Shown here: one piece after another, positions 2,455 to 61,789 of the stretch
Position numbering within the stretch: position 1 is the stretch's first letter
Layout: every line of letters begins with the position of its first letter
NCBI RefSeq assembly: GCF_022045235.1
Contig: NW_027266275.1
Coordinates: 53,878,001 to 53,942,000 of the forward strand
Direction: 5' to 3'
DNA from: Haliotis cracherodii
Lineage: Eukaryota
DNA: 64,000 nt
Notes under the pieces: model-generated
What the model was told of the DNA's origin: nothing
The model's input: the letters and a program-made list of their open reading frames with translations, nothing else
Databases searched by the model: none
Position numbers and translations under genes: made by a program

Positions 2455-2944
2455 CTTGTTCTTTGATTCCAATGTGAAAGGTTCCATTACCCAAGGTTGC
2501 CTGTTCTTCCCCAGTGATTAAAATGGTGTAGCGTAACTCTTCTTCAAGGGCAGGGTCGTCAAACCCGGAAGCGTTGATGTCACGGGGGAGCTGGTAGTAG
2601 AGGTCAAACTCACTCTCTGTGGGGAATGTTCCATTTCTAATGTACAACTCAAGGGTGACGTTGGCCATATCGGGGATCACCGTTATCCTGAGCGTCTCGC
2701 TGTCATTTCCGGACACACTCCATGTATGGTAAACCATGGACTCGTTTCCGGTGAGGACCGGATGTACGGCCACTTTGTTACTGCCGTTACCTGTCGCGCC
2801 TATGTCGATTATTATGTCAGCGTCTAGCTTATTGACTTTCACTTCATCGCCGCCGGAGTCGTAAAGATTCATGGTGAGGATGGGGGAGTTGACACTGTCG
2901 GCGCTGTTATCCCACACGTATGGATTTAACTGGGAGGTGACGAA
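2455..2944 (-). CDS. GAIN-B exon (upstream of the expected GPS)
   Basis: [40 protein letters not shown]...[15 protein letters not shown]...[10 protein letters not shown]; G|gtaaac donor. Confidence 0.9.
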
Positions 2945-32900: not shown

Positions 32901-35900
32901 TGGTTGGTGTTTCTTCTGTCGTCAGAGATGACGATGTTTCCTCGAGGTATGCTGATGATGTGGTTGGTGCCATCGCTAAAGATGAAGTCGGTGACTCTTT
33001 CGTCATCAAAGATGATGATTCGAGATATGCTGACGATGTGATTGGTTCCATTGTGACAGATGTAGTTGGTGCCGTTTCCGTCATCACAGATGATGATTCG
33101 AGATATGCTGACGATGTGATTGGTTCCATTGTGACAGATGTAGTTGGTGCCGTTTCCGTCATCACAGATGATGATTCGAGATATGCTGACGATGTGATTG
33201 GTTCCATTGTCACAGATGTAGTTGGTGCCGCTTCCGTTGTCAGAGATGATGATTCGAGATATGCTGACGATGTGATTGGTTCCATTGTCACAGATGTAGT
33301 TGGTGCCGTTTCCGTCATCACAGATGATGATGTCTCCTCGATGTAAGATGATGAAAATTGTGTTGGTTGCATATCTGCCGTTGATGTTAACGTGACTCCA
33401 TCTTGCGATGTGACAGTTGATGATGACGTTAAAAGGACATTGGAAGTGGAGGTTACTATTCCTACTGAGGTCACAGTATCAGAGTAGAAAACATCACTGC
33501 TACTTGACATCGATTCAAGGACTAAGGATGTTTCGGAAACAACAGAAGGGGCTACAAGCTCTGCTGAAATGGCATCTGACGAAGAAGGGGAAACGACAGC
33601 ATGTGAAGATGTTAGTTCCTCTGAAGAAAATGCCGACGTTGAAGTCCCTAATGAGGAGAACGAAGATGTACTGCTGAGCAAGGTTGAAGAGGGCAAAGAG
33701 TAAATACCCGTTGAAAACGAAGATGATGGGTCAGAAGATTCAATGGAGAATGCGGTCCCAGTGGAAGGTCCTATCAGGGATGTTGTCGTTCCTGTCAAAG
33801 ATGAAGATGCGACATTCAGAACTGGGGAAGAAAAATCAGTTGAAGATGTTGCAGGGCTAGATTCGTCAATAGAGTAGATTGTAGGCATTGTACTCGTACC
33901 TTCTGTAGATGAGGGCCATGATGAGGTCATAGTTGTAGGTTCGGAGCTTACTTCAACGATGAATGAGGATGGACTGTCACTTAATCCTGCAGAGGAAGGC
34001 ATCCCTGATGACAGAACCCCAATTGGAGATGATGCTTCGTTTGGAGTTGATGACATCCCACTTATTCCAGTTGAAGAAATTCCCTGTGACATCAACTCAG
34101 ACACAACTGTTGATGTAGCTACTTGTGGTGAAGTTACATAGTTCAAGGATATGGATGATGCCCCAGAAACGTCAGTCGAAGTAGACATAAGTGGTATGGC
34201 TGTTGACAATGTTTCTGTAACTGTATAAACTGTTGACGTTGTTGTTGTAACTGGGGATATTGATGACGTTGTTTCTGTCCCCGAAGATACTGCTGGTGTT
34301 GTATCTGTAGGCACTGCTGGTGTTATTGTTGTTGTTTCTGAAGAAACTGCTGCTGATGTTGTTGCTATAGGCGGAGATACTGTTGTTGTTGATGCTGTTG
34401 TTGTAACTGCAGACACTAACTGCGGTGTTGTTGTATCCGAAGATACTGTTGTACCAGAATGTGCTGTTGAAGTTGTTGTGTCAGAAGGTATAACTGACGT
34501 CATTGTTGCATCAGAAGGTACTGCAGACGTTGTCGTATCAGAAGGAACTGCTGACGTTGTTGTATCAGAAGTTACTGATAACGTTGCTGCTGACGTTGTT
34601 GTGTCAGAAATTGCTGCTGTTGACGTTGTTGTATCAGAAGAGGCTGCTGACGTTGTTGTATCAGAAGGTACTGCTGACGTTGCTGCTGACGTTGTTGTAT
34701 CGGAAGGTGCTTCTGACGTTGTTGTTGTATCAGAAGGTACTGCTGACGTTGTTGTATCAGAAGGTGCTTCTGACGTTGTAGTTGTATCAGAAGGTGCTGC
34801 TGACGTTGTAGTTGTATCAGAAGGTGCTGCTGACGTTGTAGTTGTATCAGAAGGTGCTTCTGACGTTGATGTATCAGAAGGTGCTGCTGACGTTGTAGTT
34901 GCATCTGAAGGTGCTGCTGACGTTGTTGCATCAGAAGGTACTTCTGACGTTGTATCAGAAGTTGCTGCTGACGTTGTAGTTGTATCAGAAGGTGCTGCTG
35001 ACGTTATAGTTGTATCTAAAGTTGCTGCTGACGTTGAAGATGTATCAGAAGGTACTGTTGAAGTTGTTGTTTCAGAAGGTGCTGCTGACGCCGTTGTTGC
35101 ATCAGAAGGTGCTGCTGACGTTGTATCAGAAGGTGCTGTTGACGTTGTAGCATCAGAAGGTACTAATGTCGTTGTTGCATCAGAAGGTACTGATGACGTT
35201 GTTGTATCAGAAGGTGCTTCTGACGTTGTAGTTGTATCAGAAGGTGCTGCTGACGTTGTAGTTGTATCAGAAGGTGCTGCTGACGTTGTTGTATCAGAAG
35301 GAACTGCTGACGTGGTAGTTGTATCAGAAGGTGCTTCTGACGTTGTAGTTGTATCTGAAGGTGCTGCTGACGTTGTTGTATCAGAAGGTACTGCTGACGT
35401 TGTAGCTGTATCAGAAGGTGCTGCTGATGTTGTAGTTGTATCTGAAGGTGCTGCTGACGTTGTAGATGTATCAGAAGGTACTGTTGAAGTTGTTGTTTCA
35501 GAAAGTGGTTCCGATGACGCCGTTGTTGCATCAGAAGGTGCTGCTGACGTTACATCAGAAGATATTAATGACGTTGTTGCATCAGAAGGTACTGATGACG
35601 TTGTTGTTTCAGAAGGTGCTGCTGACGTTGTTGTGGTATCAGAAGGTGCTGCTGACTCTGTTGTGGCATCAGAATGTGCTACGGACGTTGTTGTTGTTTC
35701 AGAAGGTACGGGTGACGTTGTGGTTATTCCTGAAGTTACTGCTGCTGTGGGTGCAGATACCGCTGACACTGATGTTGTAGCTGAAAACGCTGATGATGTT
35801 GTTGCTGTTTCAGAAGCTACTGCTAAAGTTGTTGTATCTGATGATACCGATGCTGGTGTTGTTGCGGTAGGTGCAGAATCTGTTGATTTGGTTGTTGTAT

Positions 35901-38900
35901 CAGAAGGTACGGTTGATGTTGTTGTATCAGAAGGTCCTGTTGACGTTGTTGTATCAGAAGGTACTGAAGACGTTGTTGTATCAGAAGGTACTACTGACGT
36001 TGTTGTATCAGAAGGTAGTGCTGACGATGTATCAGAAGGTGCTGCTGATGTTGTTGTTGCATCAGAAGATGCTGCTGACGTTGATGTTGTATCTGAAGGT
36101 GCTGCTGACGTTGTTGTTGCATCAGAGGGCGCTGCTGGCGATGTTTCAGAAGGTGCTGCTGGCGTTGTTGCATCAGAAGGTACTGCTGACGTTGTTGTTG
36201 TTTCAGAAGGTGCTGCTGACGTTGTTGTGGTATCAGAAGGTGCTGCTGACGCTGTTGTTGTAGCAGAAGGTGCTACTGACGTTGTTGTGGTATCAGAAGG
36301 TGCTGCTGACGTTGTTGTTGTATCAGAAGGTACTGCTGACGTTGTTGTTGTTTCAGAAGGTACGGCTGACGTTGTTGCATCAGAAGGTGCTGTTGACGTT
36401 GTGGTTGTATCAGAAGGTGCTGCTGACGATGTTGTATCTGAAGGTTCTGCTGACGTTGTTGTATCTGAAGGTACTGCTGACGTTGTTGTATCAGAAGGTA
36501 CTACTGACGTTGTTGTATCAGAAGGAACTGCTGACGTTGTTGTATCAGAAGGTGCTGCTGGCGTTGTTGTATCAGAAGGTACTACTGATGACGTTGTTGT
36601 ATCAGAGTGTGCTGAAGACGTTGTTGTATCAGAAGGTACTGATGACGTTGTTGTATCAGAAGGTACCACTGACGTTGTTGTATCAGAAGGGGCTTCTGAC
36701 GTTGTTGCGTCAGAAGGTTTCACTGATGACGTTGTTGTATCAGAGGATGCTGTCGACGATGTTGTATCAGAAGGCACTGCTGATGTTGTATCTGAAGGTA
36801 ATGCTGTCGTTGATGTTGTATCAGAAGGCACTGCTGACATTGTTGTTGTAGGTGGTGCTGTTGACGTTGTTGTAGATGGAGATACTGTTGACGTTGATGT
36901 TTTATCTGAAGATACCACTGACGTTGTTTCAGGAGGTACTGCTGACGTTGTTGTATCTGAAGATACTGCCGCTCCTGTTGTTGCTGTAGCTGCAGATACT
37001 GTTGACGCTGATGTAGGTGTTTCAGAGGGTACTGCTGACGTTGTTGTATCTGAAGTTACTACTGGCGTTGTTGCTGTTGGAGAAGGTTCTGATGACGTTG
37101 CTGTTGTTTCTGAAGATACAGCTGCTGATGTTGTTGTAGTTGCCGATTCTGTTGACGTTGTCGTTGCAGCTGAGGTCATTGCTGTATCGGAAGATCCTCC
37201 TGACGTTGTTGTATCAGAATGTGCTGATGTTGACGTTGTTGTATCAGAAGGTGTTGCTGAAGTTGTGGTATCAGAAGGAACTACTGACGTTGTTGTATCT
37301 AAAGGTGCTTCTGGCGTTGTTGTTGTATCTGAAGGAACTGCTGTCGTTGTTGTATCTGAAGGTACTAATGACGTTGGTGTTGTATCAGGAGGAACTGCTG
37401 ACGTTGTTGTTGTATCAGAAGGTGCTGACGACGCTGTTGTTGTATCAGAAGGTGCTGCCGTTGACGTTGTTGTATCAGAAAGCATTGCTGACGTTGTGTC
37501 AGAAGGTGCTGCTGACGTTGTCGTTGTATCAGAATGTGCTGCTGACGCTGTTGTATCAGAAGGTACTGAAGACGTTGTTGTTGTATCAGAAGGTACTGAT
37601 GACGTTGTTGTGTCAGAAGGAACTGCTGACGTTGTTGTATCAGAAGGTGCTTCTGACGTTGTTGTTGTATCAGAAGGTACTGCTGACGTTTTTGTTGTAT
37701 CGGAAGGTACTGCTGACGTTGTTGTTGTATCTGAAGGTACTGCTGACGTTGTTGTTGTATCTGAAGGTACTGCTGACGTTGCTGTATCTGAAGGTGTTGC
37801 TGACGTTGTTGTATCAGAAGGAACTGCTGACGTTGTTGTTACATCAGAAGGTGCTGCTGACGTTGTTGTATATGAAGATACAGCTTCAGATGTGGATGCA
37901 GGTGAAGATATTGTTGACGTCGTGGTATCTGAAGGTACTGATGTGAATGTTGTTGCTGTAGGGGCAGATACTGTTGACATTGTCGTAGCTGATGATGCTG
38001 GTGTTGCTGATGGTGTGTCTGCTAGGGATGTTGACAGAACTGGCTCATTGTCATGTGAAGTTATCTCCAGTGTTGATGAACTGTCCTCTACCGTTGATAC
38101 TGATAAGGTTGTAGGTGGAACTGGAAGTGGATATGTGGTATCATCGGTTGACATCAGCGTTGTTGTCTGGAATAGTAAAACATATTTGAAGGACAATATT
38201 ATCAAACGATTTCATGCCATGGTGTAAGATACAAAAGGAACCATCAACACGTGTCCATCAACACGTATAACAAATAAAGGGTGCAGTCTATCTATGGACC
38301 TAATTATACTTACGTTTCTCCGTGAAAATAAATGAGTTCAAATCAAACAGGGACGTTTTTATTAAGTCTATGCAACATGCAATTACTAACGAGGAAGGTA
38401 GATATCTATAACAAATGTATGTAAACAAATAAAATAGAAAAGCTTAAATCTTCAAAAATAGGAATTTTCAAAGTTACAAGATACAAATACTAAACAGATA
38501 ATCAGTAATGAATCACAGTTATTTACTCGAAAGCCACATTTGACATATGTGGCCATTTTAATTCATTATGATATTATGAAATATACCTGGAATACACTCA
38601 CATATGTGAATTTATTGTGAACGACTACAACAAATTGACACAAGTGACAACATCAAATACGAACCGAACTATGGGACATCTACTAGCTACCATCGACTGT
38701 ATATACACTGTGTGTCGTGTTCATACAACCTTACATTGCATTGCCTCTACAATCATACTGAATTTCATTTCTGTTAGTAAGTTTGCCGAATCCAAAATTG
38801 TGAGTTGGTTTGTAGACACCATACTCATGATCATGGGAGTCACTAAAATGACGCCTAAGACCTGCATTTAGCGTACACGTAACATGATTTAGAAATGTTC

Positions 38901-41900
38901 AAAGTTACAGCCACCTTACACGCTGATACCTAGGCATCAATCGTGATATATGGACACCACAAACAAGCACAAAGTCGGTAAAATAAACACTCAGTACCTA
39001 TGGTATACTGACTTGGGAAAGAACCTACTATTTGGTCGAACTAATAATGTACACTAAAATAGAATATGCTTTCTACGAATGAAGCTATAAAGATTCAAAA
39101 TGAAATTTATGGCAATACTATTTAAAAAAAGTTAAGAACATGTAAAAGTTTAAAAGTTTTAAAATTAAACTACATATATGGTTAGATATTATGACTGTTC
39201 TGTGTCAGCAGACATCATGTTGAAACAGATGTGTTCGCTCCACACGTGTTTCTGGCAATGGCTAGTAATGTGATGATCACAACACATCGACAGTGACGTC
39301 CACCCGTGCATGGCTGTGCGTCTCCACCTACTACAACACCAGGTGAGGTACAAAACGGCTCTTACTTCTTGCTCCAGGGAACTTACACCAGCAGAAGAGT
39401 CATGTGTGGATGGGACCATGGGGAGAGGGGATGTTCTTGTGGTCCATCTTGAGAATCTATTGTAGTTGTTGTTGATTGAATATCAGAATGAACGTATTCC
39501 ATGTTAAAGAAACCATGGTATCCATGGTTTGAATCTCTGAAGTAAGAATCTGGAGAGATTATCCAACAAGGGCATCTCTGTGCTGTGTATGTAGAGGCAA
39601 TGTCTGCTTCAAAACGGGACCCAGTTGATGTAGAAGACATCTTCATTATTTTGTGATCTGTGAACATTGCACTCATATATGACCTTAAAGTTTCTGAATT
39701 GAGTGGCTGAGTTGAAATGGCTTGATATGAAGACTCCTATGTCCATGATTCTGATTCTGGCAATGGAGTTGAAGTTTCAAAAGTGCTGTCATGGTTATAT
39801 TGTTATAGCTTGGAATTTTGGATGATTGTGATGACGAAATATAAATTGAATGGAATATACGATTTTGATTTATTGTCTCCGTTTAAGCTGACGTTTCCAA
39901 AAATTCAATTTTAGAATGATCACTATAACCTGTCATAAGTTGCATTCCCGGTATAGGCGTACACAGTGTTGTCATCTGGGACGCACGAAAGACGTAGATG
40001 TTCTTCATTGGATTACATAACATATATACTGTCACCTGTCTGTACAACTGTAGAATGCACATCAACATGCTAACTAATTGACTATAGCTTGTTCTTGAAT
40101 ATGTTGATTGTGCTGCTGAATTTTTTTTGGTCTTCCCAGACTTTCTGCTAGTCACATTTCCCAACTTGGCATCCTCGAACTTAAGCGATTGATTAAGTTA
40201 AAAGTTGATGGTTGATTTTCAGTGGTTGACGTCCAGATATAATCCATGCCATCTCTAGTTAAAGGGGATCTTCTCTTATACCTTTTGCATTTGAAGTCAG
40301 GATGAATTCATTATATATCATATAGTCTTGATATGAACTATCCCCTTTCTTTGCATTTGGCACATAAACAGAGGAAATCTGAAGAAAACTTCCTATCGTG
40401 TTGAAGCAACAGTATAAAATGTACTGATGAGGATGCATAAGCTGATGTGACTGACAGGGGTACAGGAGCTGGTCTCTGTAACGTTTCTCAAGAACTCATT
40501 GGTACTCTCTTAAGACAGGGTTTTCGTCTTTGATACCTCCAGAAATGTAAAGTAAATAGCAATTGTAGTTCAAGACGGCCCATTGACAGAGCATTTGTAA
40601 GCTTTATCAAAGAGTACCAGGGCTTGACAACAACCTTGTGCGTATTTCAACATTTAAACCAAAACTTCTCACCAGAATTAATGACCGCAACACATAAATT
40701 TGAGAAAGTATTCCTCAATAGGAAGATCCCTTTGTGATTGAGTCTGTGATGCTGAAGAGAAGTTTCTACTGTGACATATATAAGAGAAAGTGAAGGAAAA
40801 CGATATTAAAATATATTATAACTGACAGACGAAGGCGTATGGAACTAGATAAACTCTTGTTATGATTTCATAGCAAGGAAAAGTCCAAGAAAATAAAAAG
40901 AGTATCACTTACAGAAACTGTGAGCATTGTAAACGGGACTTGATTCCAACATTTCGGGCCAATAGAAAACAAGTCCATAGCATACAATATCACAAGACAA
41001 AGCTGATCAAGGCATCAAGGTGAATGGTCATGCTTACAAAGTAAACTCCCAGGTCTACAGGATGTACTATGCCGGATTTGGAGGGAACCATGATGTCATA
41101 AACAAAAGGAAGGTTGTGTGGTTGATGCTACAATTGCAACATATATCAACTGTGCCTTAGTCCTAAGGCAATCCTTGCTCTGCCTTGCAATGCTATTTTT
41201 GCTCCTGTTCATGTGAATGTTTGTTTGTTTGCTGTTTAACGCCGCATTCAGCAATATTACGGCTATGTGACAAGACAATCAAGTGATTGATATCATGAGC
41301 ATCGATCCACGCAATTGGGTTACGATGACATACATCAACCAAGTCAGCGAGCATGACCACCCGATCCCGTCAGTCGCCTCTTACGACAAACATAGTTGCC
41401 TTTTACATCAAGCATGGGTTGCTGAAGACCTATTCTAACCCGGATCTTCACAGGTTGTCCATGTGAATAGCAAATTCTATGAAGTAGATGTAAGTGTAGG
41501 TGTTGACATGCGTTGTTAAGAGACTATGTTGTTTCATAACATAACAAATAAGTGATAAGAACGTGTTACTGATTGTTCAGAGGTAAGGGACACGACGATT
41601 ATCGACTGTCAGATGTGGGCTGTTTTCATTATCACGATCGCGATAGTCTCTCTTTCAATAATAGATGAAGGAAGGATGGATGGTTTCCTGTTTATCTGGT
41701 CGGTTATCTGGATAGCATGATACTTGTATCATGTCCAGAGATGTGTACTCTAGGATATAGATATACAGACAGATATAAAACTGGGAGATGAAGAGAAACA
41801 ATGTTGAAGACCCCAGAACACATAAATATGTACACCCGATGACATACGTTCATGCCCAATTGAGCGGTCAGTTCAGAATAATACTGACAATCTGAGGACG

Positions 41901-44900
41901 ACTGCAAGTGTACAAAGACCAGTATATGATATACTGTATATGTACATTGGCATTTGGTGATTTATCCGTAGCAGTGTCATATATGGAAGATTATGAAGTA
42001 CGGCTGAAGGTGTAGCACCAACATGAAGACAGTATTGAAATCCACTTATTGTGCGCTTGTGGGTTTCATTTATTTTGGTAAAATAATGAGAATTCGTAAG
42101 ATGAAGTTTCAGGAATGGAGGATAACAGTTCTACTACTACTCAGTAAAACATGCATGATATTACTCTTATATTGAGAGACACTGTCAGAATATGACATGG
42201 CATACGTCAGGTTTTACCCGTTTCGATCTTCCAGTTGATTTGGATAACAGTTGAAGCATGTTATTTGAAGGGTCAGTTGAGGAAGGCTTGGTTGCTAAAT
42301 TTCTACTTCAAGAGCAGATTAATATACAGATGATGCTGATATGCTTTTTATGGAGAGACAAGATAATGGTCTAAGTTGTGAACAAATTACATTATTTTAC
42401 CTAACTATGACTCAGTCAGCATAAGTGCTATCTTTGATTATTTGTCTGATTTCACTGAATAGGAACAAAGAATATAATTGGGAAATGAAAGTATTGGAAT
42501 CACCATAGCTATAGGAAATAATTTCATCAACTTGGGTCCATGAAAGCACTGTGGAGACAGCAGAGGGTGGTTAGCTCAAGAGATATCAGGGAAATAATTG
42601 ATCAGGAACATGATGTTATATTGTTTGCAGATACCATCTCGTCTGGCGAATATGGTTCACTTGTTCATGGAGCTGAAGGTAATTCAGAAATCGCTTGGCG
42701 TATCTATGATGTGAGCATTGAAATCAGTTTTTTGTATATACGAGGGCTGGCTGAAAAGTTCTAAGCCTAACTGTGTAAGACCCGTACCAAGTCGATGGTT
42801 TTCATTTATTTCTCAACATAGTCCTCTTCCAGGTTTACACACTTTTGCCAGCGATGCTGCAAGGCCTGGATGCCGGTCAAGAAGAAATTTTCTTCAGACA
42901 CCCTAAAAAAGTCATTCTCAGCGGAAATGACGTCATCATTACAAGGAAAATGGCGACCGGCTTGTTCCTTTTTCATTTTGGGAAACAGGTGGAAGTCTGA
43001 CGGGGCCAAATCGGGTGAATAAGGGGGATGGTCAATGAGTTCGAAGCCACAATCATGGATCGCTGACATGGCAACCACCGATTTGTGAACAGGAGCATTG
43101 TCTTGGTGGAACAGGGCTCATTTAGTGAGCATACCCCGTCGCTTAGCTTTGATAGCTTCACGCGGCTATCTCAGTTGGTCAGCATAATATCTTCCATTGA
43201 TAGTCCAGCCTTTTTCAAGATAGTCAATCAGCAGAATACCCTTGGAATCCTAAAAGACTGAAGCCATCACCTTTCCAGATGAAGGAACCGACTTGGCTTT
43301 TTGAGGGGCTGGTGATTCCGGATGCTTCCATTGTTTAGGCTGAATTTTGGTTTCTGGTTGAAGGTGATGAATCCAGGTCTCATCCATGGTTACAAATCGG
43401 GCCAAAAATCATCGGGATCTGCTTCAAAACGGCATAAATTGTCACGGGACGTCAGGAATCTAACACGTTTCTGATCCGCTGTCAAGAGCTATGGCACCCA
43501 TCTTGCAGAAACTTTTGTCATTCACAACTCGTTGGTGATAATGTGCTCAACTCTCTCATGAGAGATGCCCACAACACTTGCAATATGTCGAGTGGTCAGT
43601 CGTCGATCAGCCATCACCATGTCATGAACCCAGGTAATGTTTTCCGTAATGGTTGCTGTTGAAGGCCTTCCTGGACGCGGGTCATCGTCAAGGCTCTCTC
43701 TGCCACGCTTGAATTCCGCAGCCCACTTCTTTACAGTGGTAAAGGAAGGGGCATCATCCCCTATAGTGGAGACCATGTCAGCATGTATTTGTGTTGGAGT
43801 TAGCCCTCTCAGTTGTAGGTACTTGATGACTGCTCTATAGCCACTTTTGTCCATTTCTGCTGTTTCAATGGGTAGGTTCAAGATGGTCTGGTACAAAGAC
43901 AATAATAACACTACAGTTGCAGTTCTTATGTCTATGATTCATTAAATGATTGTACTTGTTGGTGGCAAAAGTTTGTTTCAATCCGATTGAGATGTCCCAC
44001 TTAGGCTTAGAACTTTTCAGCCAGCCCTCGTACTTACACCTTCCTCCAATAAAAGAATAACATATTGCTTACTGTAACGCATGTTGAGAAGTCCACATTA
44101 ATGTTGATTCTGTTCTTTTTTAATCTTCCACTGATGAATCCGATTGTGGATTGGGACATGTAGTGACAAAACCTTACTTGATAAACTTTGATATTGTGGT
44201 AACTAAATACAGGGTGTTATGAAAATCTCTGAAACACTTGTTTGGGTCATCATATTAGTTTCAGTTGAAACGTCATATTTTCCTTAAGCAAAATGTTTTG
44301 AGTTGAAAGTTCTGTGTAGTACTTTCTATTTCGACTGACGATGTATCAAGCTATTTAGGTACGTGATTTACCAACATTACTTTCAATGATTAATTTGAAG
44401 AGCTGGGACACAATTGTGACAACATGAAGATTGACTTAACACTACTTTCTAAGTGACTATAAATGGTGCAATAAAATGAACAAAGATAAGAAGAAATTGA
44501 ACGTGAAAGCTATTTAGGTATGTGATTTACCAACATTGCTTTCAGTGATCAATTTGAAGATTTAGTACACAATTGTGGCGGTGGGAAGATTGATTGCAAT
44601 AAGATGAACAAAGATAAGAAGAGATTGAACGTGAAATTATTAGGATTACATCTGTAGGTGACAGATTCTGAGTTGATATATCAGTGACAGAAACAGACAA
44701 AGCAGGAGTGGATGTTCAAATACATGAGATGGTTGTGCTTGCTGTGGAACCAGCTGTTGACACGACGACTCATAGGTTGCTGCTCATTGTGGGTAGATGG
44801 TCACTTGGTGACAGTGCACCAGTTATTGTTGACACTGAAGATTCAGGTAGCCTATTGCTCATTGTGGGTAGATGGTCACTTGGTGACAGTGCACCAGTTA

Positions 44901-47900
44901 TTGCTGAGACTGAAGATTCAGCTAGCCTATTGCTCATTGTGGGTAGATGGTCACTTGGTGACAGTGCGCCAGTTATAGCTGACACTGAAGATTCAGGAAT
45001 TTTGTATGGTGACTGGATATTGTTTCAGCTTTAGCAACAAAAGCAGATATTTCTTTAATAAAAGCAAAACTATGATTCCAAATACTTTCTTTTAAAAAAA
45101 CACAACTTGCAACGATGTACTTTTTGTCCCTGGCAATGTCTTTTCTTCAACACACTGAAGCATAATTAAATGGTTGGTCCCTAAGTGAAGTGATGTAATG
45201 TGTTCTCTGCCAATTTACAAAACGAATGATGTAGTAAGATCTTGATTTGAATAGTGGTGTGGCTGTTATGTCTGCATCAGTCATGGGGGATGTTGAAATA
45301 CTGGGCTCAAGTGTAGTGAGGATGACTGGGGATAGAACCATTGTCATTACTCACTGTCACAAGACAGAAGTCTTCTTTGATAACACAGTTGAGGTGACGA
45401 AATGTACCAAACCTCTATAACGTATATATGCTTGATTTGACTTGAAGAACTCTCCATGGTTGTGTTTCAGTTCGATCAGTTGTAGGGTGGAAACTAACCG
45501 ATCTTCAGGTGCAATTGGTGTGATGACCCGTGAAAAGGCATCAACATATAGAGCTGATACAGCAAGGGCACCGGGTGTCATGATTTCATCATCATTGGGA
45601 AAAGTGAGTGAGTGAGTATGGTTTTACGCCGCCTTTAGCAATACTCCAGTAGTATCACGGCAGAGGACACCAGCAATGGGCTTCACACATTGTACCCATG
45701 TCGGTAATCGAACCCGGGTCCTCGGCGTGACGAGCGAACGCTTTAACCTCTAGGCTACCCGACCGCCCCTCATTCGGAAAAGAGACAGGACCAAATGATG
45801 CCAAGTGCCAATGATCTCTGAAGATATCTGACCATTTGGTGAGTAGATTCCATCTGTGTTTGACGATATTTGAATGGATAACTAGTTTCTGATACATAAC
45901 AATTGTTATTGAAACAGTGCTAGAACTATCTGACATAATATCTAATGCCTGAGCTGCAGAAGTGATGAAAGATGTATTGGTGAGGACTACTGTGGTTGAA
46001 ACGGGGCTAATTGCAGTTTCTGCCACAAATGCTGATATACCTATGACCAACAATGGTGAAGAAATAAAAGAGGTTTGGGCACTGGAAAAGATAGTTAGAT
46101 CAGCACTGGATGACACTTGAATCGCTGAGAAGACCATGTTTTTGAACGAGAAAGTTTCAGTGGCCTAAAATGTTGCTTGGATACTAAATATAACGACTTC
46201 ATCAGTTTTGGATGATGCCTCAATCGCTGAGGAGACCATGCCATATGTTGAGGAACCTCTAGATATAGACTGTACACTTGAGATGACTTGATCAGATGTA
46301 GATGATGCCTCAATCACTGAGAGGTCCATACCAACTGATGAGGAAGTTTCAGTGGCCTCAGATGTAGTTTGGACACTTAAAAAGGTGACTTGAACAGTGC
46401 TAGATGATGCCTCAACAGCTGAAGAGACCATACTCACTATTGAGTATGTTTCGGTGGCCTCAACTGTGGTGTGAGAACTTGACGACTTAACTCGCCCTGC
46501 ACTGAATGATGCCACAGTCGCAAAGGAGACCATGTCATATGACGTGGAAGTTTCAACGGCTTCAGATGTAGATTGGGCACTTGTTGAAATGACTTGATCA
46601 ATGCTAAATGAAGCTTCAATCGCCGTAGATATCATGTCATATGATGAAAACGTTTCTGTGGTCTCAGATCTAGTTTGGACACTTGACAAGCTAACTTGAT
46701 CAGTGCTGTAGGGTGTTTCCATCATCGGCGATATAATGCCTACAGATGAGGAAGTTTCTGTGCCCTCTATTGAGGAGGCCATGCTAAATTACAAGTGAAG
46801 TCCAGTGGCCACAGATCTAGCTTGGGTAACTCAGATGACTTGTTCACAGCTAGGTGATATACCATTTATTGATGATGAAGTTGAAATGATATCTTGCAAG
46901 GTGATGACATGATCCATTTCCACTATTGGTGATGTATTATTGATCTCCGAGGTGACCTCGGAATTTGCTGAGAAGATTATTCCTGTGACAGATGTCATTT
47001 CACTCACTGCAGTGACTAGATCAACTGACGATGAAGTCGCAATGATCTCTGATTGAGCCCTTGTTGATGTAAGAAGGTGGTCTAATGCACTTCTATCTGA
47101 CACATACACATAGTTTTCAATAGACATAGAAGTAGTAACCGAACTATTTGACACAATATCTAATACCTGAGTTGTCGTAATGATGTTCTCAGCTGTGGTT
47201 GAAACAGGGACACTTGTTGATGCTGCAAATGCTGCTGTCTCAATGCCCCACAGTGATGACCAGGCAATGGAAGTATGGCCATCTGACGAGATGAGTTGAT
47301 CAGTGGTGTATGATATGTCAAAATCAACCAGAGATGAGGAGATTCCAGTGGCCTCAGATATAGCTTGAACACTTAAAAAGGTGACTTGATCAGAGCTAGA
47401 TGATGCCTCAATCGCCGAAGCAGCTATGCCATATGATGAGGACGATTCACTGGCCTCAGATGAAGATTGGTCACTGGATGACAATACTTGATCAGGGATA
47501 GATGATGCCTCAATAGTTGTTGAGATCATGGCAATTGAACTGGTACCTTTTGAAACAGCTTGGGTACTTGTTGAGATGACCTGTTCAGCACTTGATAAAG
47601 CCCCAATGGATGGTGATAATGATATAATTTGCACGGAAATAGTTTCAGTGGTGTCAGATGTAACTTGGGTTTGCGACATGATGACTTGATCAGTGTTCAA
47701 TGTTGTCTCATACACTGATGATATAGTTTCAGGGATATCTGTCGAAGGGGTGGCATTATCACTACCTACTGTTGGTGATGAATCAATGTCCTTAGATGTG
47801 GCTTTGGAACTTGCTGCGGAGTTTTCATCAGCGCTAGATGATGTTTTAGTAAATGAAACAGGAACAACTGGTGAGGCCTCGATAATCTCTGATGTCATTA

Positions 47901-50900
47901 GGTCTAGTGTTGAGAAGAGGATGTGAGTATCACTTGATGCTACATTAGATACTGAGGAGATACCACCCATTGATGAAGGTGTTTCAACTGACGGCGATGT
48001 ACTTGGTGAGGAAAAATATCCATCCAAGTGAGAATTACTTTCTTGAACATCAGCATTATTTTTACTAGACACTGAAGCAGTAACATAACTATCTGACACA
48101 ATATCTAATACCTGAGTCATAGAACTGATGATGGGTGGATCGGTAGAATGGGTTGCAGTTGATGCTGCAGATATTGATGTCCTGATGCCAAGGGATGGAG
48201 ATTGAAATGAAGTTATATGAGCACTTGAAGGGGTGAACTGATAATCGGAAGGTGATTCCTTAATATCGAATAGCGTTGTCGATGAGGTGGCTGTGACATC
48301 TGTGATCTCGGAAGTCACCTGAATAAAAATTGATGACACGTGAGGTATCGATGGTAGGATTCCCTGAGATGAAGATTCTTCAAATAGTTCTGAGATACCC
48401 AGGGCACTTGATGTCAATTCTGATACTGATGAGGCAATCACTCCTGGTGAGGCTTCAGTAATTCCGGATGTAGCCTGTACGGTTGGAGAGGAAATTGGGT
48501 ATTCATTATTTACTGACACTCCAGGTTCTCTAAAGGTGACATCAAGTGAGGCGTCTGGTGTCACCTGTGTATCAGTGCTTGATGAGACAATTTCAACTAT
48601 TGATGACTGTCTAACTGATGAAATCTTGGAACTTGCCAAAACTATTGTTGACAACATCTCTGTTGCTAATGAAATGTTGCTCAGGGATGATAAATATATA
48701 TGTTCTGTTGTAGTATGAACGGTTGAGGTTTGATCAGTGTCAGATGAAATTTCTGCTGCTGCTGATGGTGTTACCAGTTCTGATGCATCCTTGATGCTGT
48801 AAGGTGTGCCAGTTTCATCCATGCCACTGATTGCTGTGTGATGTTCCACAGTAGAGGATACAGGGTAGACATCTGAAGTTGTTTGTAATGTTCCAAATGC
48901 AGTTTCTAGTACACTTTCAAGAGCGACAATATACCTTGAGGATAAGTCAGAAACAAACAGTGATGTTTCTTCGGCGAGTGACGGTTCATGCAGTCCATCA
49001 GTAGTTGCTATGCTGCTTAACACTGACAATGAACCATAAGTCGAAACTCTGGCTGTTACAGGAACTGCTATTGATGATTCAAATACAAATAGTGATGTTT
49101 CCTCGGCGAAAGATGGTTCATGGGGTGCTTCTGTGGATTTTGGAACCGAGTCACTGTTGCTGCTTAAAATTAATGATGAAGAGGAGTTCAATTTCAATGT
49201 TTTGTCGTCACTGTTAATCGTTGATGTTACAGCTTCTGACGACATGACAGTTGAAGATGCTACTTTCTGAGGACTGCTCAGTGCTGGACTTAAGTCACTC
49301 AAGTCATTTGATGATGTAAATTCAAAAATACTATTTTCAGAAAATATTCCAGTACTGCTTTCTAGCATCGAATAACGTGATGACAATGCCTGAATAGGTG
49401 TTGAAGTTTGCTGAGGTGTTGACTGGTGAGGTGACACCAATATTTCTGGAAAAACGGATGACGCTCCTTCTATTTCTGCACTTGAGGATGAAACAGTGGA
49501 ATACACATGATCTGACATACCATTACGTAATGGAGTTGAACTAACCTGCTCCACGGATGAACTGGACAAAGATGATTCTGTTATAACAGGAATAGCACTG
49601 CTCAGAACAGGGACAACTGTTGTTGAACTCCCTAAAGGGGAATTGTGCACTGTGAATGTTGATGATTCCACTGCAGCATTACCATAACTTGATGAAGATT
49701 GGCTATCTAAACTTGATGATGGATGACCAATACTAGTTGAAACTTCATTTGTTGTGTATCCCACTGAATAGATTATGGAATCGGATGACGATCCGGGAAT
49801 ATATGTGGATCTAACATCAAAACTACTTTCAGTAGTAAGTCCATGTGTCTCGACCGATGTTGAGAACTGTCCACTTTCTTCAGTCAAAAGTCTTGTACTG
49901 CTGTCGGACGTAATCGGTGAAGATGTCTCCAGCATTACTGAAGTTGAGCTGGAAGCTTCTTGTGATGTTACTGCAGCTGACTCGGGAGCACTGGAACCTG
50001 TTAATGATGATGAAGATGACATTACACTAGACGAATCAGCTGAAGGTAACATGGTAGCTTCTAATGAGTTTGTGGATGTAGAAACTGCAGAGGAATCAGC
50101 AGTCGCATCAGCTAAAGATGACATTACAGTAGACCAATCAGTTGAAGATGACATTACAGTAGACGAATCATCTGAAGATGAGACCACAGTTGACGAATCG
50201 GCTGAAGATGACATTACAGTTGACGAATCAGCTGAAGATGACATTACAGTAGACGAACCAGCTGACGATGACATGGTAGCTCCTAATGAGTTTGTGGATG
50301 TAGAAACTGCAGAGGAATCAGCGGACGCATCAGCTAAAGATGACATTACAGTAGACCAATCAGTTGAAGATGACATTACAGTAGACGAATCAGCTGAAGA
50401 TGACATTACAGTAGACGAACCAGCTGAGGATGACATGGTCGGTGAAGAGGCAGAGGTTTCGATCAAAGATGACATCACGGTTGATGAATCAGCAAACGGA
50501 TCAGCATGAGATGACATAACAGTTGACGAATCAGCTGAAGATAACATTACTGTTGACTCAGACCATGAATCAGACGTCACAATGCCACTACTTCCTACTG
50601 AAACATGTTTAGTGTAAAATGATATGTCTTCGGTGGTGCTGCCTGCATCACTGCTGAAGAGGGTAGGAACTGGGAGCATCAATGTTAAAGCAGGCGATGA
50701 CGATAATGATAATGATGTTTCTGCAATAGTTTCCGAAAGATTAGTGATTAATGATTCGAGTATATGGGTCTGTGTTACCTTTGTGGATTCTGTCGATGAT
50801 AGGCTTTCCAGCGGAGAAGCCACAGCTTCAGTTGAGGTGACCAGTGATGAAGGTAATAGATTATCAGTTGGGGTCATAGTTGTGGAAGGTTCAGCGAAAT

Positions 50901-53900
50901 CAGCAGATGTTGTTACTGTAGACGAATCAGCTGAAGATGACATCACATTAGACAAATCAGCTGAAGATGAGATCACAGTAGACGAATCAGTTAAAGATGA
51001 CATTACGGTTGACAAATCAGCTGAAGATGACATTACAGTAGACGGATCAGCCGACGATGACATTACAGTAGACGAATCAGCCAGAGTTGAAATTACAGTT
51101 GACGGATCCGCCGAAGTTGACATAACAGTGGACGAATCGGCTGAAGATGACAATAAAATAGCCGAATCAGCTGACGATGACATCACAGTAGAGGAATCAG
51201 CTGAAGTTGACATTACAGTAGACGAATCTTCCGAAGCTGGCAATACAGTAGACGAATCAGCCGAAGATGACATGGTAGGTGAAGAGGTGGAGGTTTCGAT
51301 CGAAGATGACATCATGGTTGATGAATCAGCTGACGATGACATTAGAGTTGACGAATCCGCCGAAGCTGGCAATACAGTAGACGAATCAGCCGAAGTTGAC
51401 ATTACAGTTGACGAATCCGCCGAAGTTGACATTACAGTGGACGAATCAGCCGAAGTTGACATTACAGTAGACGAATCAGCCAAAGTTGACATTACAGTAG
51501 ACGAATCAGTCGAAGCTGGCAATACAGTAGACGAATCAGCTGAAGATGACATGGTAGGTGAAGAGGTGGAGGTTTCGATCGAAGATGACATCACAGTTGA
51601 TGAATCAGCAGACGGATCAGCTGGTGATGACATAACAGTTGACGAATCGGCTGATGACGACAATACAGTAGACGAATCAGCCGAAGTTGACATTACAGTA
51701 GACGAATCAGCCGAAGTTGACATTACAGTTGACGAATCAGCCGAAGTTGACATTATAGTAGATGAATCCGCCGAAGGTGGCAATTCAGTTGAGGAATCAA
51801 GCGAAGTTGACATTACAGTAGATGAATCAGCTGACGATGACATTAGAGTTGACGAATCCGCCGAAGTTGACATTACAGTGGACGAATCAGCTGACGATGA
51901 CATTACAGTTGACGAATCAGCTGAAGATGGCATTAGAGTAGACGAACCAGACGAAGTTGACATTACAGTTGACGAATCATCCGAAGTTGACATTGCAGTA
52001 GACGGATCAGCCGACGATGACATTACAGTAGACGAATCAGCCGACGATGACATTACAGTAGACGGATCAGCTGAAGATGACATTACAGTTGACGAATCAG
52101 CTGACGATGACATTACAGTAGACGGATCAGCCGACGATGACATTACAGTAGACGGATCAGCCGACAATGACATTACAGTGGACGAATCAGCCGACGATGA
52201 CATTACAGTAGACGAATCAGCTGAAGATGACATAACGGTTGACATATCAGCTGAAGATGACATGGTAGGTGAAGTGGTGGAGCTTTCGATCGAAGATGAC
52301 ATCACGGTTGATGAATCAGCATACTGATCAGCTGACGATAACATTACAGTTGACGAATCAGCTGAAGATGACATAGTAGGTGAAGTGGTGGAGGTTTCGA
52401 TCAAAGATGACATCACGGTTGATGAATCAGCAAACGGATCAGCATGAGATGACATAACAGTTGACGAATCAGCTGAAGATAACATTACTGTTGAATCAGA
52501 CCATGAATCAGACGTCGCAATGCCACTACTTCCTACTGAAACATGTTCAGTGTAAAATGATATGTCTTCGGTGGTGCTGCCTGCATCACTGCTGAAGAGG
52601 GTAGGAGCTGGGGGCATCAACGTTAAAGCAAGCGATGACGATAATGATAATGATAATGATGTTTCTGCAATAGTTTCCGAAAAGTTAGTGATGAATGATT
52701 CAAGTGTATGGGCCTGTGTTACCTTTGTGAATTCTGTCGACGATAGGCTTTCCAGCGGAGAAGCCACAGCTTCAGTTGAGGTGACCAGTGATGAAGGTAA
52801 TAGATTATCAGTTGGGGTCATAGTTGTGGAAGGTTCAGCGAAATCAGCAGATGTTAAAGTTGATATCACAGTTGAAGAAGCAGCAGATGGAATGGCAGTT
52901 GGCGAAGCTTCTAATGGGATCGTGGATGTAGAAACTGCAGAGGAATCAGCAGACGTATCAGCTGAAGATGACATTACAGAAGAAAAATCCGCTGAAGCTG
53001 GCAATACAGTAGACAAATCAGCTGAAGATGACATGGTAGGTGAAGAGGTGGAGGTTTCGATCGAAGATGACATCACAGTTGATGAATCAGCAGACGGATC
53101 AGCTGGTGATGACATTACAGTAGACGAATCAGCCGAAGTTGACATTGCAGTTGACGAATCAGCTGAAGATGACATTACAGTAGACGAATCAGCCGAAGTT
53201 GACATTACAGTTGACGAATCAGCCGAAATTGACATTACAGTTGACGAATCAGCCGAAGTTGACATTACAGTAGACGAATCCGCCGAAGCTGGCAATTCAG
53301 TTGAGGAACCAGCCGAAGTTGACATTACAGTAGATGAGTCAGCTGACGATGACATTAGAGTTGACGAATCCGCCGAAGTTGACATTACAGTGGACGAATC
53401 AGCTGAAGATGGCATAACAGTAGACGAACCAGACGAAGTTGACATTACAGTTGACGAATCATCTGACGATGACATTACAGTAGACGGATCAGCTGAAGAT
53501 GACATTACAGTTGACGAATCAGCCGACGATGACATTACAGTAGACGGATCAGCCGACAATGACATTACAGTGGACGAATCAGCCGACGATGACATTACAG
53601 TAGACGAATCAGCTGAAGATGACATTACAGTTGACGAATCAGCTGACGATGACATTACAGTAGACGAATCAGCTGAAGATGACATAACGGTTGACATATC
53701 AGCTGAAGATGATATGGTAGGTGAGGTGGTGGAGCTTTCGGTCGAAGATGACATCACGGTTGATGAATCAGCATACTGATCAGCTGACGATAACATTACA
53801 GTTGACGAATCAGCTGAAGATGACATAGTAGGTGAAGTGGTGGAGGTTTCGATCGAAGATGACATCACGGTTGATGAATCAGCTGAAGATAACATTACTG

Positions 53901-60907: not shown

Positions 60908-61789
60908 CTGTGATAAACATGCTTTGTGTTAACTGCTGTTTGGATGTATATTATAAATATGCTACGTCATCTAAGTCGCAAGCATCAGAGACCAGTTTGA
61001 GACAGAATATTTTCTGTGCTAAAAAAGCACACCATATTATTCTGAAAGGAGGGATATAAAATGTATATGAACCACTAAACATTATGTTTCAAAACATCAA
61101 AGCATGTCCACTGTGTGATTAACATTCTGGGAACAAAACTCAGATAATTTTTTCGAGCTGTTTAAAGTTTTGACACAGTTTTTGCCCGCCGATGAATCAG
61201 TTCGTAGTTTATTTGTTTCGTCTTTACGAAACCTTGGAAGACAAACCCTTTGTCGAAAAGAGAAGTAAATATATATGTCATACAGAAAAAGCAGGGAATA
61301 CTTTGTTTTGAGGTGAAACTTCAGGAAGAAACACCAATGTCTCGATAAAGTAAGTGTGGCAAGAACATTAAATCAAGCTCCCAAAAATAATAATGAAGCC
61401 CGTGACCATGGACAGCACACTCAAGGGGTGTATGCCAGATTTACCATTGTCACTTAGACTCGGTTGTGAGCAGACGCATATTGTTTTCTTGATGTCATCC
61501 CACTTGATCTATTTTTGAAACCCAAGGTACCCAAAATTGATTAGGTCATGTGGGAATGCACGCATGATGACTTTTTGTCATTAGATCTTGTGGTAATGGG
61601 TTGTTAAGTGGGCTGTCATTTCATTCTCATCTGAGGGGTTATCAGGTTCAATAATCAATTCAAAGAGCAAACTTACATGTTTGCAGACAATGTCAACCTT
61701 TGTACATGATATATACATATACAACAATAACAATACCAATTTAAAGACATGAATATATAGATATCACTGATAAATATCAATGTAGCCAC

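What the first reader, a model, noticed from the sequence alone, without database searches (positions are those of the whole stretch)
39300..46830. Fossil tail of a mucin mega-exon: about 7.5 kb of decayed coding sequence behind the stop codon
Seen: the 3069-aa ORF ends QVI-TGA, whereas paralogous repeats upstream read QVI-TCA (QVIST...), so the stop looks like a point nonsense change. Past it, ORF 46165-46782 continues the SDQVISS...AIEASS repeats. ORF 45655-46137 (...[30 protein letters not shown]) is paralogous to exon-4 segments ([36 protein letters not shown]). An in-frame 25-aa repeat sits at 44775-44998, and patchy Ser/Thr-type sequence persists to about 39300. A mariner and two interspersed repeats have inserted into it. 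Inference: an ancestral exon of roughly 16-17 kb is eroding from its 3' end, with decay apparently increasing away from the live part.
Basis: partly seen in the sequence, partly recalled or inferred. Interest (0 to 1): 0.7.

Follow-up and report, generated by a model that had tools for sequence, protein, structure and literature searches.

The report
Eroding giant exon in abalone polycystin
In an abalone gene for a polycystin-type surface receptor, about 7.4 kb of decayed mucin-coding sequence lies behind the present stop codon, likely the abandoned end of a roughly 15-kb exon that shrank in steps, and the latest step is a stop codon that two related species do not have.

Summary
Real, and not an assembly error. 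The minus-strand Ser/Thr frame ends in TGA at 46833-46831. Two related organisms read TCA there and GAG at a later stop (46167), while a TAA at 46791 is shared by all three. Similarity to the live exon reaches only about 45,890, but frame-specific Ser/Thr codon signal continues in patches to about 39,390 (4 of 6 far segments beat their own shuffles). It ends at two in-frame phase-0 donors that match the phase-0 acceptor at 38166. Decay comes in strata (about 0-2%, 10% and 35-40%), not as a smooth gradient. A mariner and three repeats have inserted. The downstream receptor is intact, so it must bypass the stops, most likely through an upstream in-frame donor. Read-through would give a secreted mucin of about 3,250 aa. 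No RNA was available, so splicing is inferred. The processes are known (stop shift, exon erosion); the scale and the stepwise record are unusual.

The parts
60624..60907 (-). SEA1 exon a (phase-1 acceptor; RVRR motif, a recalled furin-type site, then the first third of SEA1). A candidate signal-peptide exon lies 25.6 kb upstream, outside the window (L013:2516-2567, minus)
57994..58061 (-). SEA1 exon b (68 nt, the same length as the matching SEA2 exon 32250-32317)
57078..57259 (-). SEA1 exon c, ending in a phase-1 donor
46831..56003 (-). Open part of the mucin mega-exon: phase-1 acceptor at 56003, 3057 codons, 33% Ser and 13% Thr, one Cys, no transmembrane-like stretch (best 19-mer hydropathy 1.38)
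47002..47007 (-). Candidate present-day in-frame (phase-0) donor GCA|GTGAGT, score 1.5. Others at 47166, 47769, 48318 (4.0), 48564, 49545 (4.6), 50778/52722/54132 and 55833. Use is untested
46831..46833 (-). Stop 1, TGA: present in runs X1 and X4 (organism A), TCA (Ser) in X7 (organism B) and X12 (organism C)
46789..46791 (-). Stop 2, TAA: shared by all four runs laid (organisms A, B, C); aligns to TCA in a paralogous repeat
45870..46788 (-). Young stratum T1: 306 codons still in frame, paralogous to the live exon; only lineage-specific breaks (A: TAG 46165-46167, GAG in B and C; B: 2-bp and 15-bp deletions at 46229 and 46370)
44640..45869 (-). Middle stratum: frameshifted Ser/Thr coding remnant, simulated decay about 0.1 substitutions per site
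45603..45770 (-). SINE-like repeat with a tRNA-like head and a target-site duplication; 92-95% to the best genomic copies; contigs of B and C run into it
44994..45175 (.). Older interspersed repeat, 70-79% to other genomic copies (best 76%)
44781..44997 (-). 75-bp (25-codon) tandem repeat, 2.9 copies, 95% alike
42735..44035 (-). Full-length, broken mariner-type transposon (inverted repeats, TA ends, HTH_48); contigs of A and C run into it
41217..41455 (-). Interspersed repeat with a 9-bp target-site duplication, 81-93% to other copies
39387..44640 (-). Old stratum: single-copy sequence (outside the insertions) with patchy Ser/Thr codon periodicity, simulated decay about 0.35-0.4; no signal in 42100-40600
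39360..39386 (-). Putative ancestral donor(s): GGT|GTAAGT at 39386 and GAA|GTAAGA at 39365, both phase 0 in the last Ser/Thr frame; the coding-like score peaks at 39360-39270 and then falls
32563..38166 (-). Next exon: 5,604 nt, phase-0 acceptor, Thr/Ser repeats plus the first part of SEA2; a weaker phase-1 AG lies 45 nt inside (38121)
2456..32317 (-). Rest of the gene within the window (many exons): SEA2, a second Ser/Thr exon, calcium-binding EGF exons, SEA3, the PKD/REJ exon (14070-16976) and GAIN; GPS, PLAT and the channel continue about 14 kb beyond the window's left end

Best explanation
The 7.4 kb behind the stop is likely the abandoned 3' part of a roughly 15-kb internal mucin exon of a polycystin-1/REJ-like gene, an exon whose coding end has retreated in steps, the latest being a TCA-to-TGA change absent from two related organisms. 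Shown: the stops and their distribution among A, B and C; paralogy of the near tail; codon periodicity in the far tail; the insertions; SEA1-SEA2-SEA3 colinearity with one octopus protein; an intact downstream receptor. Inferred: the ancestral exon ran from 56003 to a phase-0 donor at 39386 or 39365 and spliced to the phase-0 acceptor at 38166, giving a receptor of about 11,000 aa. The far 3.7 kb (insertions excluded) dropped out first, the middle ~0.9 kb later, and the near ~0.9 kb (T1) shortly before A, B and C split. Today the membrane receptor (about 9,100 aa) would be made from an in-frame donor upstream of the stops (47007 or 48318 fit best), so the tail is intron for that isoform. Transcripts that run past that donor would end at the stop and give a secreted SEA-plus-mucin protein of about 3,250 aa. 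The low-complexity stalk needs only an open frame, so cuts near its end are nearly neutral and fix one after another.
For: Stop 1 is TCA and stop 3 is GAG in X7 and X12; stop 2 is unchanged in all four runs; the call listed all 26 differences and X4, X7 and X12 span the stretch in one contig. Indels of X7 inside the open frame are 9, 3 and 3 nt; inside the tail, B and/or C show 2, 15, 8, 7 and 2 nt (4 indel rows not shown). With about 1.2% divergence per lineage, 0 breaks in 9,170 nt has P about 0.003 for nonsense changes alone, so the frame is held open (rates are my assumptions). Frame-aware score against each segment's own trinucleotide shuffles: T1 z 14.9, middle 2.3 and 7.5, far 2.1, 3.8, 0.0, 0.3, 2.9, 5.2 (pooled 5.8; 4.1 without the last), against -0.5 and 0.2 past the donor and 0.3 +/- 1.1 for 26 intron windows. 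Simulated strata: about 0-0.02, 0.1 and 0.35-0.4. Phase logic: phase-1 donor at 57077, phase-1 acceptor at 56003, phase-0 acceptor at 38166, and both donors at the end of the signal are phase 0. Abalone SEA1, SEA2 and SEA3 each score best against octopus P0157 SEA1, SEA2 and SEA3 (160 vs 130; 158 vs 130; 95 vs 53). The receptor part is 97.4-99.7% identical to H. rufescens P0151, against 95-96% for the Ser/Thr exon. A good signal-peptide exon was found upstream of SEA1 and none as good in the tail. For the secreted branch: 46437-45870 stayed open (P about 0.01 if dead as long as the middle stratum) although no phase-0 donor scoring above -2 lies between 46420 and 45750, which suggests translation to a stop.
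Against: No protein model holds the mega-exon: two searches with its 3' part found none (length-limited and easily crowded out), and the three abalone RefSeq models start in or after the next exon without a signal peptide. Beyond 45,890 nothing aligns to the live exon, and 42100-40600 has no frame signal. The last segment's edge was set after I had seen the donor, though a fixed-grid scan and a cumulative scan give the same edge. The ages assume the tail began with the composition of the live exon. The live exon's 3' end shows no amino-acid-level constraint (3 synonymous of the 17 differences displayed there, about 25% expected by chance), so the place where constraint ends is not pinned down. 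My donor matrix is a rough one from memory, real donors of this gene score from -0.4 to 7.5, and donor-like sites are not depleted beyond shuffles. SEA1 vs SEA2 margins are modest (30 points).
Confidence: 0.5

Rival explanations
1. Pure exon erosion by donor shift (intronization of an exon end): the 5' splice site moved upstream in steps, the abandoned parts became plain intron, and all stops arose afterwards. Only the membrane receptor is made; there is no secreted mucin.
For: A phase-0 GTGAGT at 47007 sits upstream of every stop, would keep 8,996 nt of the open frame, and scores better than the real donor of the next exon. Another phase-0 GTGAGT lies at 46437. T1 now evolves like neutral sequence (B 3 of 13, C 3 of 10 codon changes synonymous). 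This avoids a transcript with a premature stop.
Against: T1 stayed open to 45870 while the sequence right behind it was already broken, and no phase-0 donor lies near that edge (P about 0.01 for 46437-45870). A lost donor could explain this.
Confidence: 0.25
2. Gene fission or exon skipping: the mega-exon is now a terminal exon of a stand-alone secreted mucin, and the polycystin is made separately, from its own promoter or by skipping the mega-exon (57077 donor to the phase-1 AG at 38121).
For: All three abalone models start after the mega-exon. A phase-1 AG exists at 38121, and a weak ATG-hydrophobic-GT candidate exon at 38867-38735 is phase 1. AATAAA occurs at 42810, 42074 and 39874.
Against: The AG at 38166 comes first and has the better pyrimidine tract (T fraction 0.50 vs 0.27). 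The models lack signal peptides, so they are probably 5'-truncated. The octopus protein keeps SEA1 and the channel together.
Confidence: 0.14
3. Only the near 2 kb is the old end of this exon; the farther Ser/Thr patches are remains of one or more separate mucin exons that died, so there never was one 15-kb exon.
For: No alignment beyond 45,890. A gap of 1.25 kb of non-repeat sequence without frame signal. The gene has several separate Ser/Thr exons.
Against: All six far segments score above the null mean and 5 of 6 score higher on the sense strand. A patchy signal is what the simulation gives at 0.3-0.5 decay (SD about 0.02 bits/nt). No intron-like low stretch as deep as that past 39380 occurs inside.
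Confidence: 0.1
4. Assembly error or chance low-complexity sequence.
For: Ser/Thr-rich sequence aligns easily without composition correction.
Against: X1 and X4 carry all three stops, and B and C differ by clean sense codons. The locus is single-copy. The signal beats composition-preserving shuffles.
Confidence: 0.01

Closest known systems
Polycystin-1/REJ-like (TRPP1) proteins of molluscs: Octopus vulgaris 'polycystic kidney disease 1-like 2' (P0157, 4460 aa), Haliotis asinina polycystin-1-like (P0156), H. rufescens XP_048238653.1 (P0151), H. cracherodii XP_071106159.1 (P0001); eight TRPP1-like genes of H. discus hannai, 1,778-4,715 aa (PMC12980990, passages and supplementary table rows read)
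   Same: Domain order SEA - Ser/Thr - SEA - Ser/Thr - EGF - SEA - PKD - REJ - GPS - PLAT - channel. P0001 is 100% identical to the window's PKD/REJ exon.
   Different: The SEA1-SEA2 spacer is about 480 aa in octopus, against about 4,900 aa open now and about 6,750 aa ancestrally here (inferred). None of the abalone models found includes SEA1 or the mega-exon, and none has stops in the middle of the gene.
Exon erosion / intronization by movement of a splice boundary (PMC9612004, abstract and section 3.8 read; PMC2740785, abstract read)
   Same: Former exon sequence ends up inside an intron when a boundary moves.
   Different: PMC9612004 deals with tracts within about 15 nt of a boundary, and PMC2740785 finds at most ten clear boundary moves among 28,256 introns. 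Here about 5.5 kb of exon sequence (7.4 kb with insertions) was lost in several dated steps. Splicing here is inferred, not shown.
Stop-codon shifts by premature termination codons (PMC3342867, abstract read)
   Same: A point nonsense change shortens the protein and leaves former coding sequence behind the stop; this is commoner in weakly constrained genes.
   Different: Here the change appears fixed between organisms and repeated (14 codons in A; about 310-380 codons before the A/B/C split; earlier ones inferred), and it lies in an internal exon upstream of an intact receptor.
SEA-domain membrane mucins with a very large central Ser/Thr exon (MUC3/MUC16/MUC17 type; recalled, plus the search listing of PMC9578598)
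   Same: SEA domains and a multi-kb Ser/Thr exon that varies in length between species (exon 5 is about 550 aa longer in H. rufescens).
   Different: Length change in those genes is usually by repeat number (recalled), not by a retreating exon end. The C-terminal part here is a polycystin, not a single-pass mucin tail.

Membership tests
Polycystin-1/REJ-like (TRPP1) | PKD repeats and REJ module | tested here: met
   Pfam PKD and REJ above cut-off in window 14070-16976 and in P0001
Polycystin-1/REJ-like (TRPP1) | GPS motif, PLAT domain, polycystin domain and PKD channel | tested here: met
   All above cut-off in P0001; the exons of the H. rufescens orthologue map in order on the window and its left flank at mostly 82-100%
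Polycystin-1/REJ-like (TRPP1) | Eleven transmembrane segments | not tested
   No topology prediction was run
Polycystin-1/REJ-like (TRPP1) | SEA1 and the mega-exon are in the same transcript as the receptor | not testable with these tools
   Needs RNA; inferred from colinearity with octopus P0157
SEA-domain mucin | Long Ser/Thr(/Pro)-rich, Cys-poor region | tested here: met
   33% Ser, 13% Thr, 3.8% Pro, 1 Cys in 3,056 aa; Pro is low for a classic PTS domain
SEA-domain mucin | SEA domain | tested here: met
   The joined SEA1 exons align with the octopus stretch that Pfam calls SEA (z 21.7). The two SEA1 exon frames scanned alone gave no Pfam hit
SEA-domain mucin | Signal peptide and secretion of the stop-terminated form | tested here: inconclusive
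   Candidate signal exon with a strong phase-1 donor 25.6 kb upstream; no hydrophobic anchor in the exon; no expression data
SEA-domain mucin | Dense O-glycosylation | not testable with these tools
   Needs protein
Stop-codon shift by premature termination codon | Orthologous position is a sense codon in relatives and the frame continues behind it | tested here: met
   TCA in X7 and X12 at 46833, GAG at 46167; direction inferred from paralogous TCA codons, with no outgroup
Exon erosion / intronization by donor shift | Former exon sequence now lies in an intron, with an old donor of matching phase | tested here: inconclusive
   Signal ends at two phase-0 donors matching the acceptor at 38166, but no intact relative was found
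Exon erosion / intronization by donor shift | A new upstream donor is used in RNA | not testable with these tools
   Candidates listed; needs junction reads
Tc1/mariner transposon (insertion at 42735-44035) | Terminal inverted repeats, TA target ends, transposase HTH and catalytic motifs | tested here: met
   Inverted repeats and TA ends, Pfam HTH_48, recalled motifs found across frames; D-D spacing not counted

The most novel reading that the evidence does not exclude
An abalone polycystin-1-like receptor carries a titin-like mucin stalk (about 9,000 aa, ancestrally about 11,000 aa) whose 15-kb exon works as a switch between a membrane receptor and a secreted mucin, and the secreted end is being trimmed by a ratchet of nonsense mutations that leaves a dated fossil series in the intron. 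A polycystin gene would be caught in the act of budding off a secreted mucin.
Probability: 0.3. Interest if true: 0.7.

Novelty: new variant of a known kind. Interest (0 to 1): 0.48.

Why it matters
It gives a rare, readable record of how a giant low-complexity exon changes length: by its end retreating in steps that can be ordered from shared and species-specific stops and from transposon ages, not only by repeat gain and loss. It also corrects the gene model. Public abalone models of this polycystin start after the mega-exon and lack a signal peptide; the full gene probably spans about 100 kb and encodes one of the longest polycystin-1-like proteins, perhaps with a secreted mucin isoform. 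One long-read RNA experiment would settle it. The underlying processes are known, and mollusc mucin exons far longer than 16 kb are noted elsewhere in this scan (unchecked), so size alone is no record.

Tried and rejected
No RNA holder listed among 17 runs; this says nothing about expression. Protein searches with the last 400 aa of the open frame (701-2000 aa targets) and with residues 2600-3087 (1697-5403 aa targets) found nothing; both are weak for low-complexity queries, and proteins above 5,403 aa were searched only with the PKD region (4 hits). No paralogue of the tail, of the exon's 3' part or of SEA1 exon a in the own genome. Depletion of donor-like sites as a mark of former exon: not beyond shuffles, uninformative. 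Synonymous/non-synonymous counts: near-neutral in both live end and tail, so they cannot place the boundary (two rows at 46368 and 46372 were dropped because they come from a paralogous piece of the contigs, and displayed only 40 of 207 rows). Stop-codon read-through was considered and rejected: three different stops, two lineage-specific, plus a frameshift in B. A short intron removing stops 1 and 2 (AG at about 46784, phase 2) was considered; no phase-2 donor scoring above 0 lies in 48030-46790. The in-frame 75-bp repeat is weak evidence: at 95% identity it probably arose after its stratum died, and a period divisible by three has a one-in-three chance. Literature: abalone + polycystin + mucin, 0 papers; PKD1L2 + SEA domain + invertebrate, 0; mucin/large exon/premature stop/polyadenylation/secreted isoform, 0 at 4 of 5 terms; some searches gave only general papers. 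The two readable supplements of PMC12980990 hold none of three short motifs of this gene, so its orthologue among the eight H. discus hannai genes was not identified; six slide-format supplements could not be read and may show domain maps that bear on the N-terminus. Earlier findings near this place: none.

Full report
Setting. The window is G000:C12:53,878,001-53,942,000 of a 1.18-Gb genome. Its PKD/REJ exon is 100% identical to P0001, named polycystin family receptor for egg jelly-like of Haliotis cracherodii, on a contig of the same length as C12. One minus-strand gene fills the window. It has three SEA1 exons (60907-60624, 58061-57994, 57259-57078), a mega-exon starting at a phase-1 acceptor at 56003, a 5,604-nt Thr/Ser exon with the start of SEA2 (38166-32563), further SEA2, Ser/Thr, EGF and SEA3 exons, the PKD/REJ exon, and GPS, PLAT and channel exons that run about 14 kb past the left end. 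A candidate signal-peptide exon with a strong phase-1 donor lies 25.6 kb upstream of SEA1.

The observation. The open frame ends CAA GTC ATC TGA, where three paralogous repeats read TCA. The same frame continues for 13 codons to a TAA at 46791, 207 codons to a TAG at 46167, and about 99 more to a frame break near 45,870. This stretch aligns to the last third of the live exon (tblastn E 4e-10 with composition correction; blastn 65% over 459 nt). That test is too strict, because most of the exon's 3' third is non-repetitive and need not have a paralogue. I therefore trained a codon model on the non-tandem last 1,062 codons of the live frame and scored the tail with frameshifts allowed. Against 26 intron windows and 198 upstream windows, the segments scored z 8.4 (T1), 5.1, 3.5, 8.4, then 1.5, 2.9, 1.1, 0.5, 2.2 and 4.0, and -0.5 and -1.2 past 39380. 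Against each segment's own trinucleotide-preserving shuffles, which remove composition as a cause, 4 of 6 far segments stand out (6, 0, 2 and 0 of 200 shuffles reach the score) and 2 of 6 (42100-40600) do not (85 and 78 of 200); the pooled z is 5.8, or 4.1 without the last segment. The cumulative score peaks at 39360-39270 and then falls steadily.

Insertions. A SINE-like repeat with a tRNA-like head and a target duplication lies at 45603-45770 (92-95% to its best copies). An older repeat lies at 44994-45175 (best 76%), a full-length broken mariner at 42735-44035 (up to 94%), and a repeat with a 9-bp duplication at 41217-41455. Outside these, the searched tail is single-copy. From acceptor to the end of the signal is 16,617 nt, or about 14,730 nt without insertions.

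Relatives. Seventeen DNA or unlabelled runs of three coded organisms hold the stretch; I laid 4 of them. B (X7) and C (X12) differ from the window by about 2.4% (100 of 4,259 and 104 of 4,244). Over 46120-46900 the call listed all 26 differences. Stop 1 reads TCA in B and C, stop 3 reads GAG in B and C, and stop 2 is unchanged in all four runs. X1 and X4 (organism A, two studies) keep all three stops. B has its own 2-bp and 15-bp deletions in T1. Record coordinates imply a net 2-nt loss in C somewhere in 45758-46120 (inferred; it may lie outside T1). In the open frame, all of X7's indels are in frame (9, 3, 3 nt; they and the 17 nt in T1 account for its 32 gap letters). So assembly error is excluded and the order is readable: a TAA fixed before the three split, removing about 310-380 codons; then A lost 14 more codons and each lineage began to break T1 in its own way. 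There is no outgroup, so direction rests on the paralogous TCA codons and on parsimony.

Strata. Simulated neutral decay of T1 and of a non-training part of the next exon places T1 at about 0-0.02 substitutions per site, the middle tail at about 0.1 and the far tail at about 0.35-0.4. This assumes a similar starting composition and my own mutation and indel rates. The repeat ages agree in order of size: the mariner and SINE are a few percent from their copies and seen in relatives' contigs, and the old repeat is about 25% from its copies. Decay is therefore stepwise, and the far end is not the worst preserved.

What the exon belongs to. The octopus orthologue P0157 carries SEA - Ser/Thr - SEA - Ser/Thr - EGF - SEA - PKD - REJ - GPS - PLAT - channel in one chain. 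Each abalone SEA scores best with its octopus counterpart (160 vs 130, 158 vs 130, 95 vs 53). So the mega-exon is internal to a polycystin-1-like gene. The phases fit an internal exon: it starts in phase 1 after a phase-1 donor, the next acceptor (38166) is phase 0, and the last Ser/Thr frame of the tail runs into two phase-0 donors, GGT|GTAAGT at 39386 and GAA|GTAAGA at 39365. The receptor part is under constraint: 97.4-99.7% identity to H. rufescens against 95-96% for the Ser/Thr exon, and 79% to H. asinina in the PKD region. It therefore needs a way round the stops.

Mechanism. Phase-0 donor-like sites lie in the open frame at 47007, 47166, 47769, 48318, 48564, 49545, 50778, 52722, 54132 and 55833. 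The one at 47007 would keep 8,996 nt and give a receptor of about 9,100 aa; the ancestral exon would give about 11,000 aa; read-through to stop 1 would give about 3,250 aa with no membrane anchor. The frame is held open in A (P about 0.003 for no nonsense change in 9,170 nt), but its 3' end shows no amino-acid constraint (3 synonymous of 17 displayed differences), as expected of a glycosylated spacer. One point favours a stop-terminated product at some stage: the last 567 nt of T1 stayed open while the sequence behind them was already broken, and no usable phase-0 donor lies there (P about 0.01). I put the two-product reading at 0.5, pure donor retreat at 0.25, fission or skipping at 0.14, separate dead exons at 0.10 and artefact at 0.01. 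That the tail is decayed coding sequence is about 0.97 for the near 2 kb and about 0.85 for the far part. None of the splice junctions has been seen in RNA.

Comparison with what is known. Stop-codon shifts are common as polymorphisms in weakly constrained genes (PMC3342867, abstract). Capture of exon ends by introns is described as exon erosion (PMC9612004, abstract and section 3.8), and boundary moves are reported as rare (PMC2740785, abstract). H. discus hannai has eight TRPP1-like genes of 1,778-4,715 aa, and the figure legend of their domains names no SEA or mucin part (PMC12980990, passages and table rows; slide supplements unread). Ten searches found no paper on this locus or on multi-kilobase stepwise loss of a mucin exon end; the library lacks most subscription journals.

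Verdict. A real feature, correctly spotted, with direct cross-species support for the latest steps. It is a new variant of known processes at unusual scale, and it sits inside a mis-annotated polycystin gene. Interest 0.48.

Noticed in passing
L013:2516-2567 (minus; about 25.6 kb upstream of window 60907): Candidate first coding exon: ATG, hydrophobic core and a strong phase-1 donor that joins in frame to SEA1 exon a. It is missing from the three public abalone models found.
   Followed up: partly
window 45465 and 44595: Contigs of organisms B and C carry about 190-205 extra bases at 45465 and about 30-35 at 44595 relative to the window (table 8): insertions in B/C or deletions in A.
   Followed up: no
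window 45503 and 47869: All four runs, including both of organism A, have 7 extra bases at 45503 and 3 extra at 47869, so these are deletions private to the assembled haplotype.
   Followed up: no
window 50000-55500: The tandem part of the mega-exon holds three near-identical blocks about 1.4-1.9 kb apart inside a 30-bp (10-aa) repeat array, all in frame, each with the same donor-like site (54132, 52722, 50778).
   Followed up: no
window 32563-38166 and 28918-30597: Both downstream Ser/Thr exons are longer in H. rufescens P0151 (by roughly 550 and 240 aa), so ordinary repeat-number change goes on beside the erosion.
   Followed up: partly
window 17884-18678, 11517-12167, 10274-11171: Intronic minisatellites (40, 39 and 20 bp) begin at or overlap the 3' ends of coding exons of the polycystin; the 40-bp array starts with the last bases of the SEA3 exon.
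   Followed up: no
window 61760-62760: Fragments that read like a broken transposase-related frame upstream of SEA1; no Pfam hit for two of its ORFs.
   Followed up: no
L016 (extended coordinate about 117,650, plus strand): The next gene upstream appears to be a ubiquitin-specific protease of the USP36/42 type on the opposite strand (label recalled from the motif, not tested).
   Followed up: no
P0043 (Macrobrachium), P0012 (Mya): Distant relatives of this polycystin also have long Ser/Thr-rich N-termini (about 2,280 and 270 aa), so a mucin stalk seems general for this subfamily.
   Followed up: partly
window 46865-46870: An AATAAA lies inside the open frame, 32 nt before stop 1; probably chance, but it should be checked in 3'-end data.
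   Followed up: no
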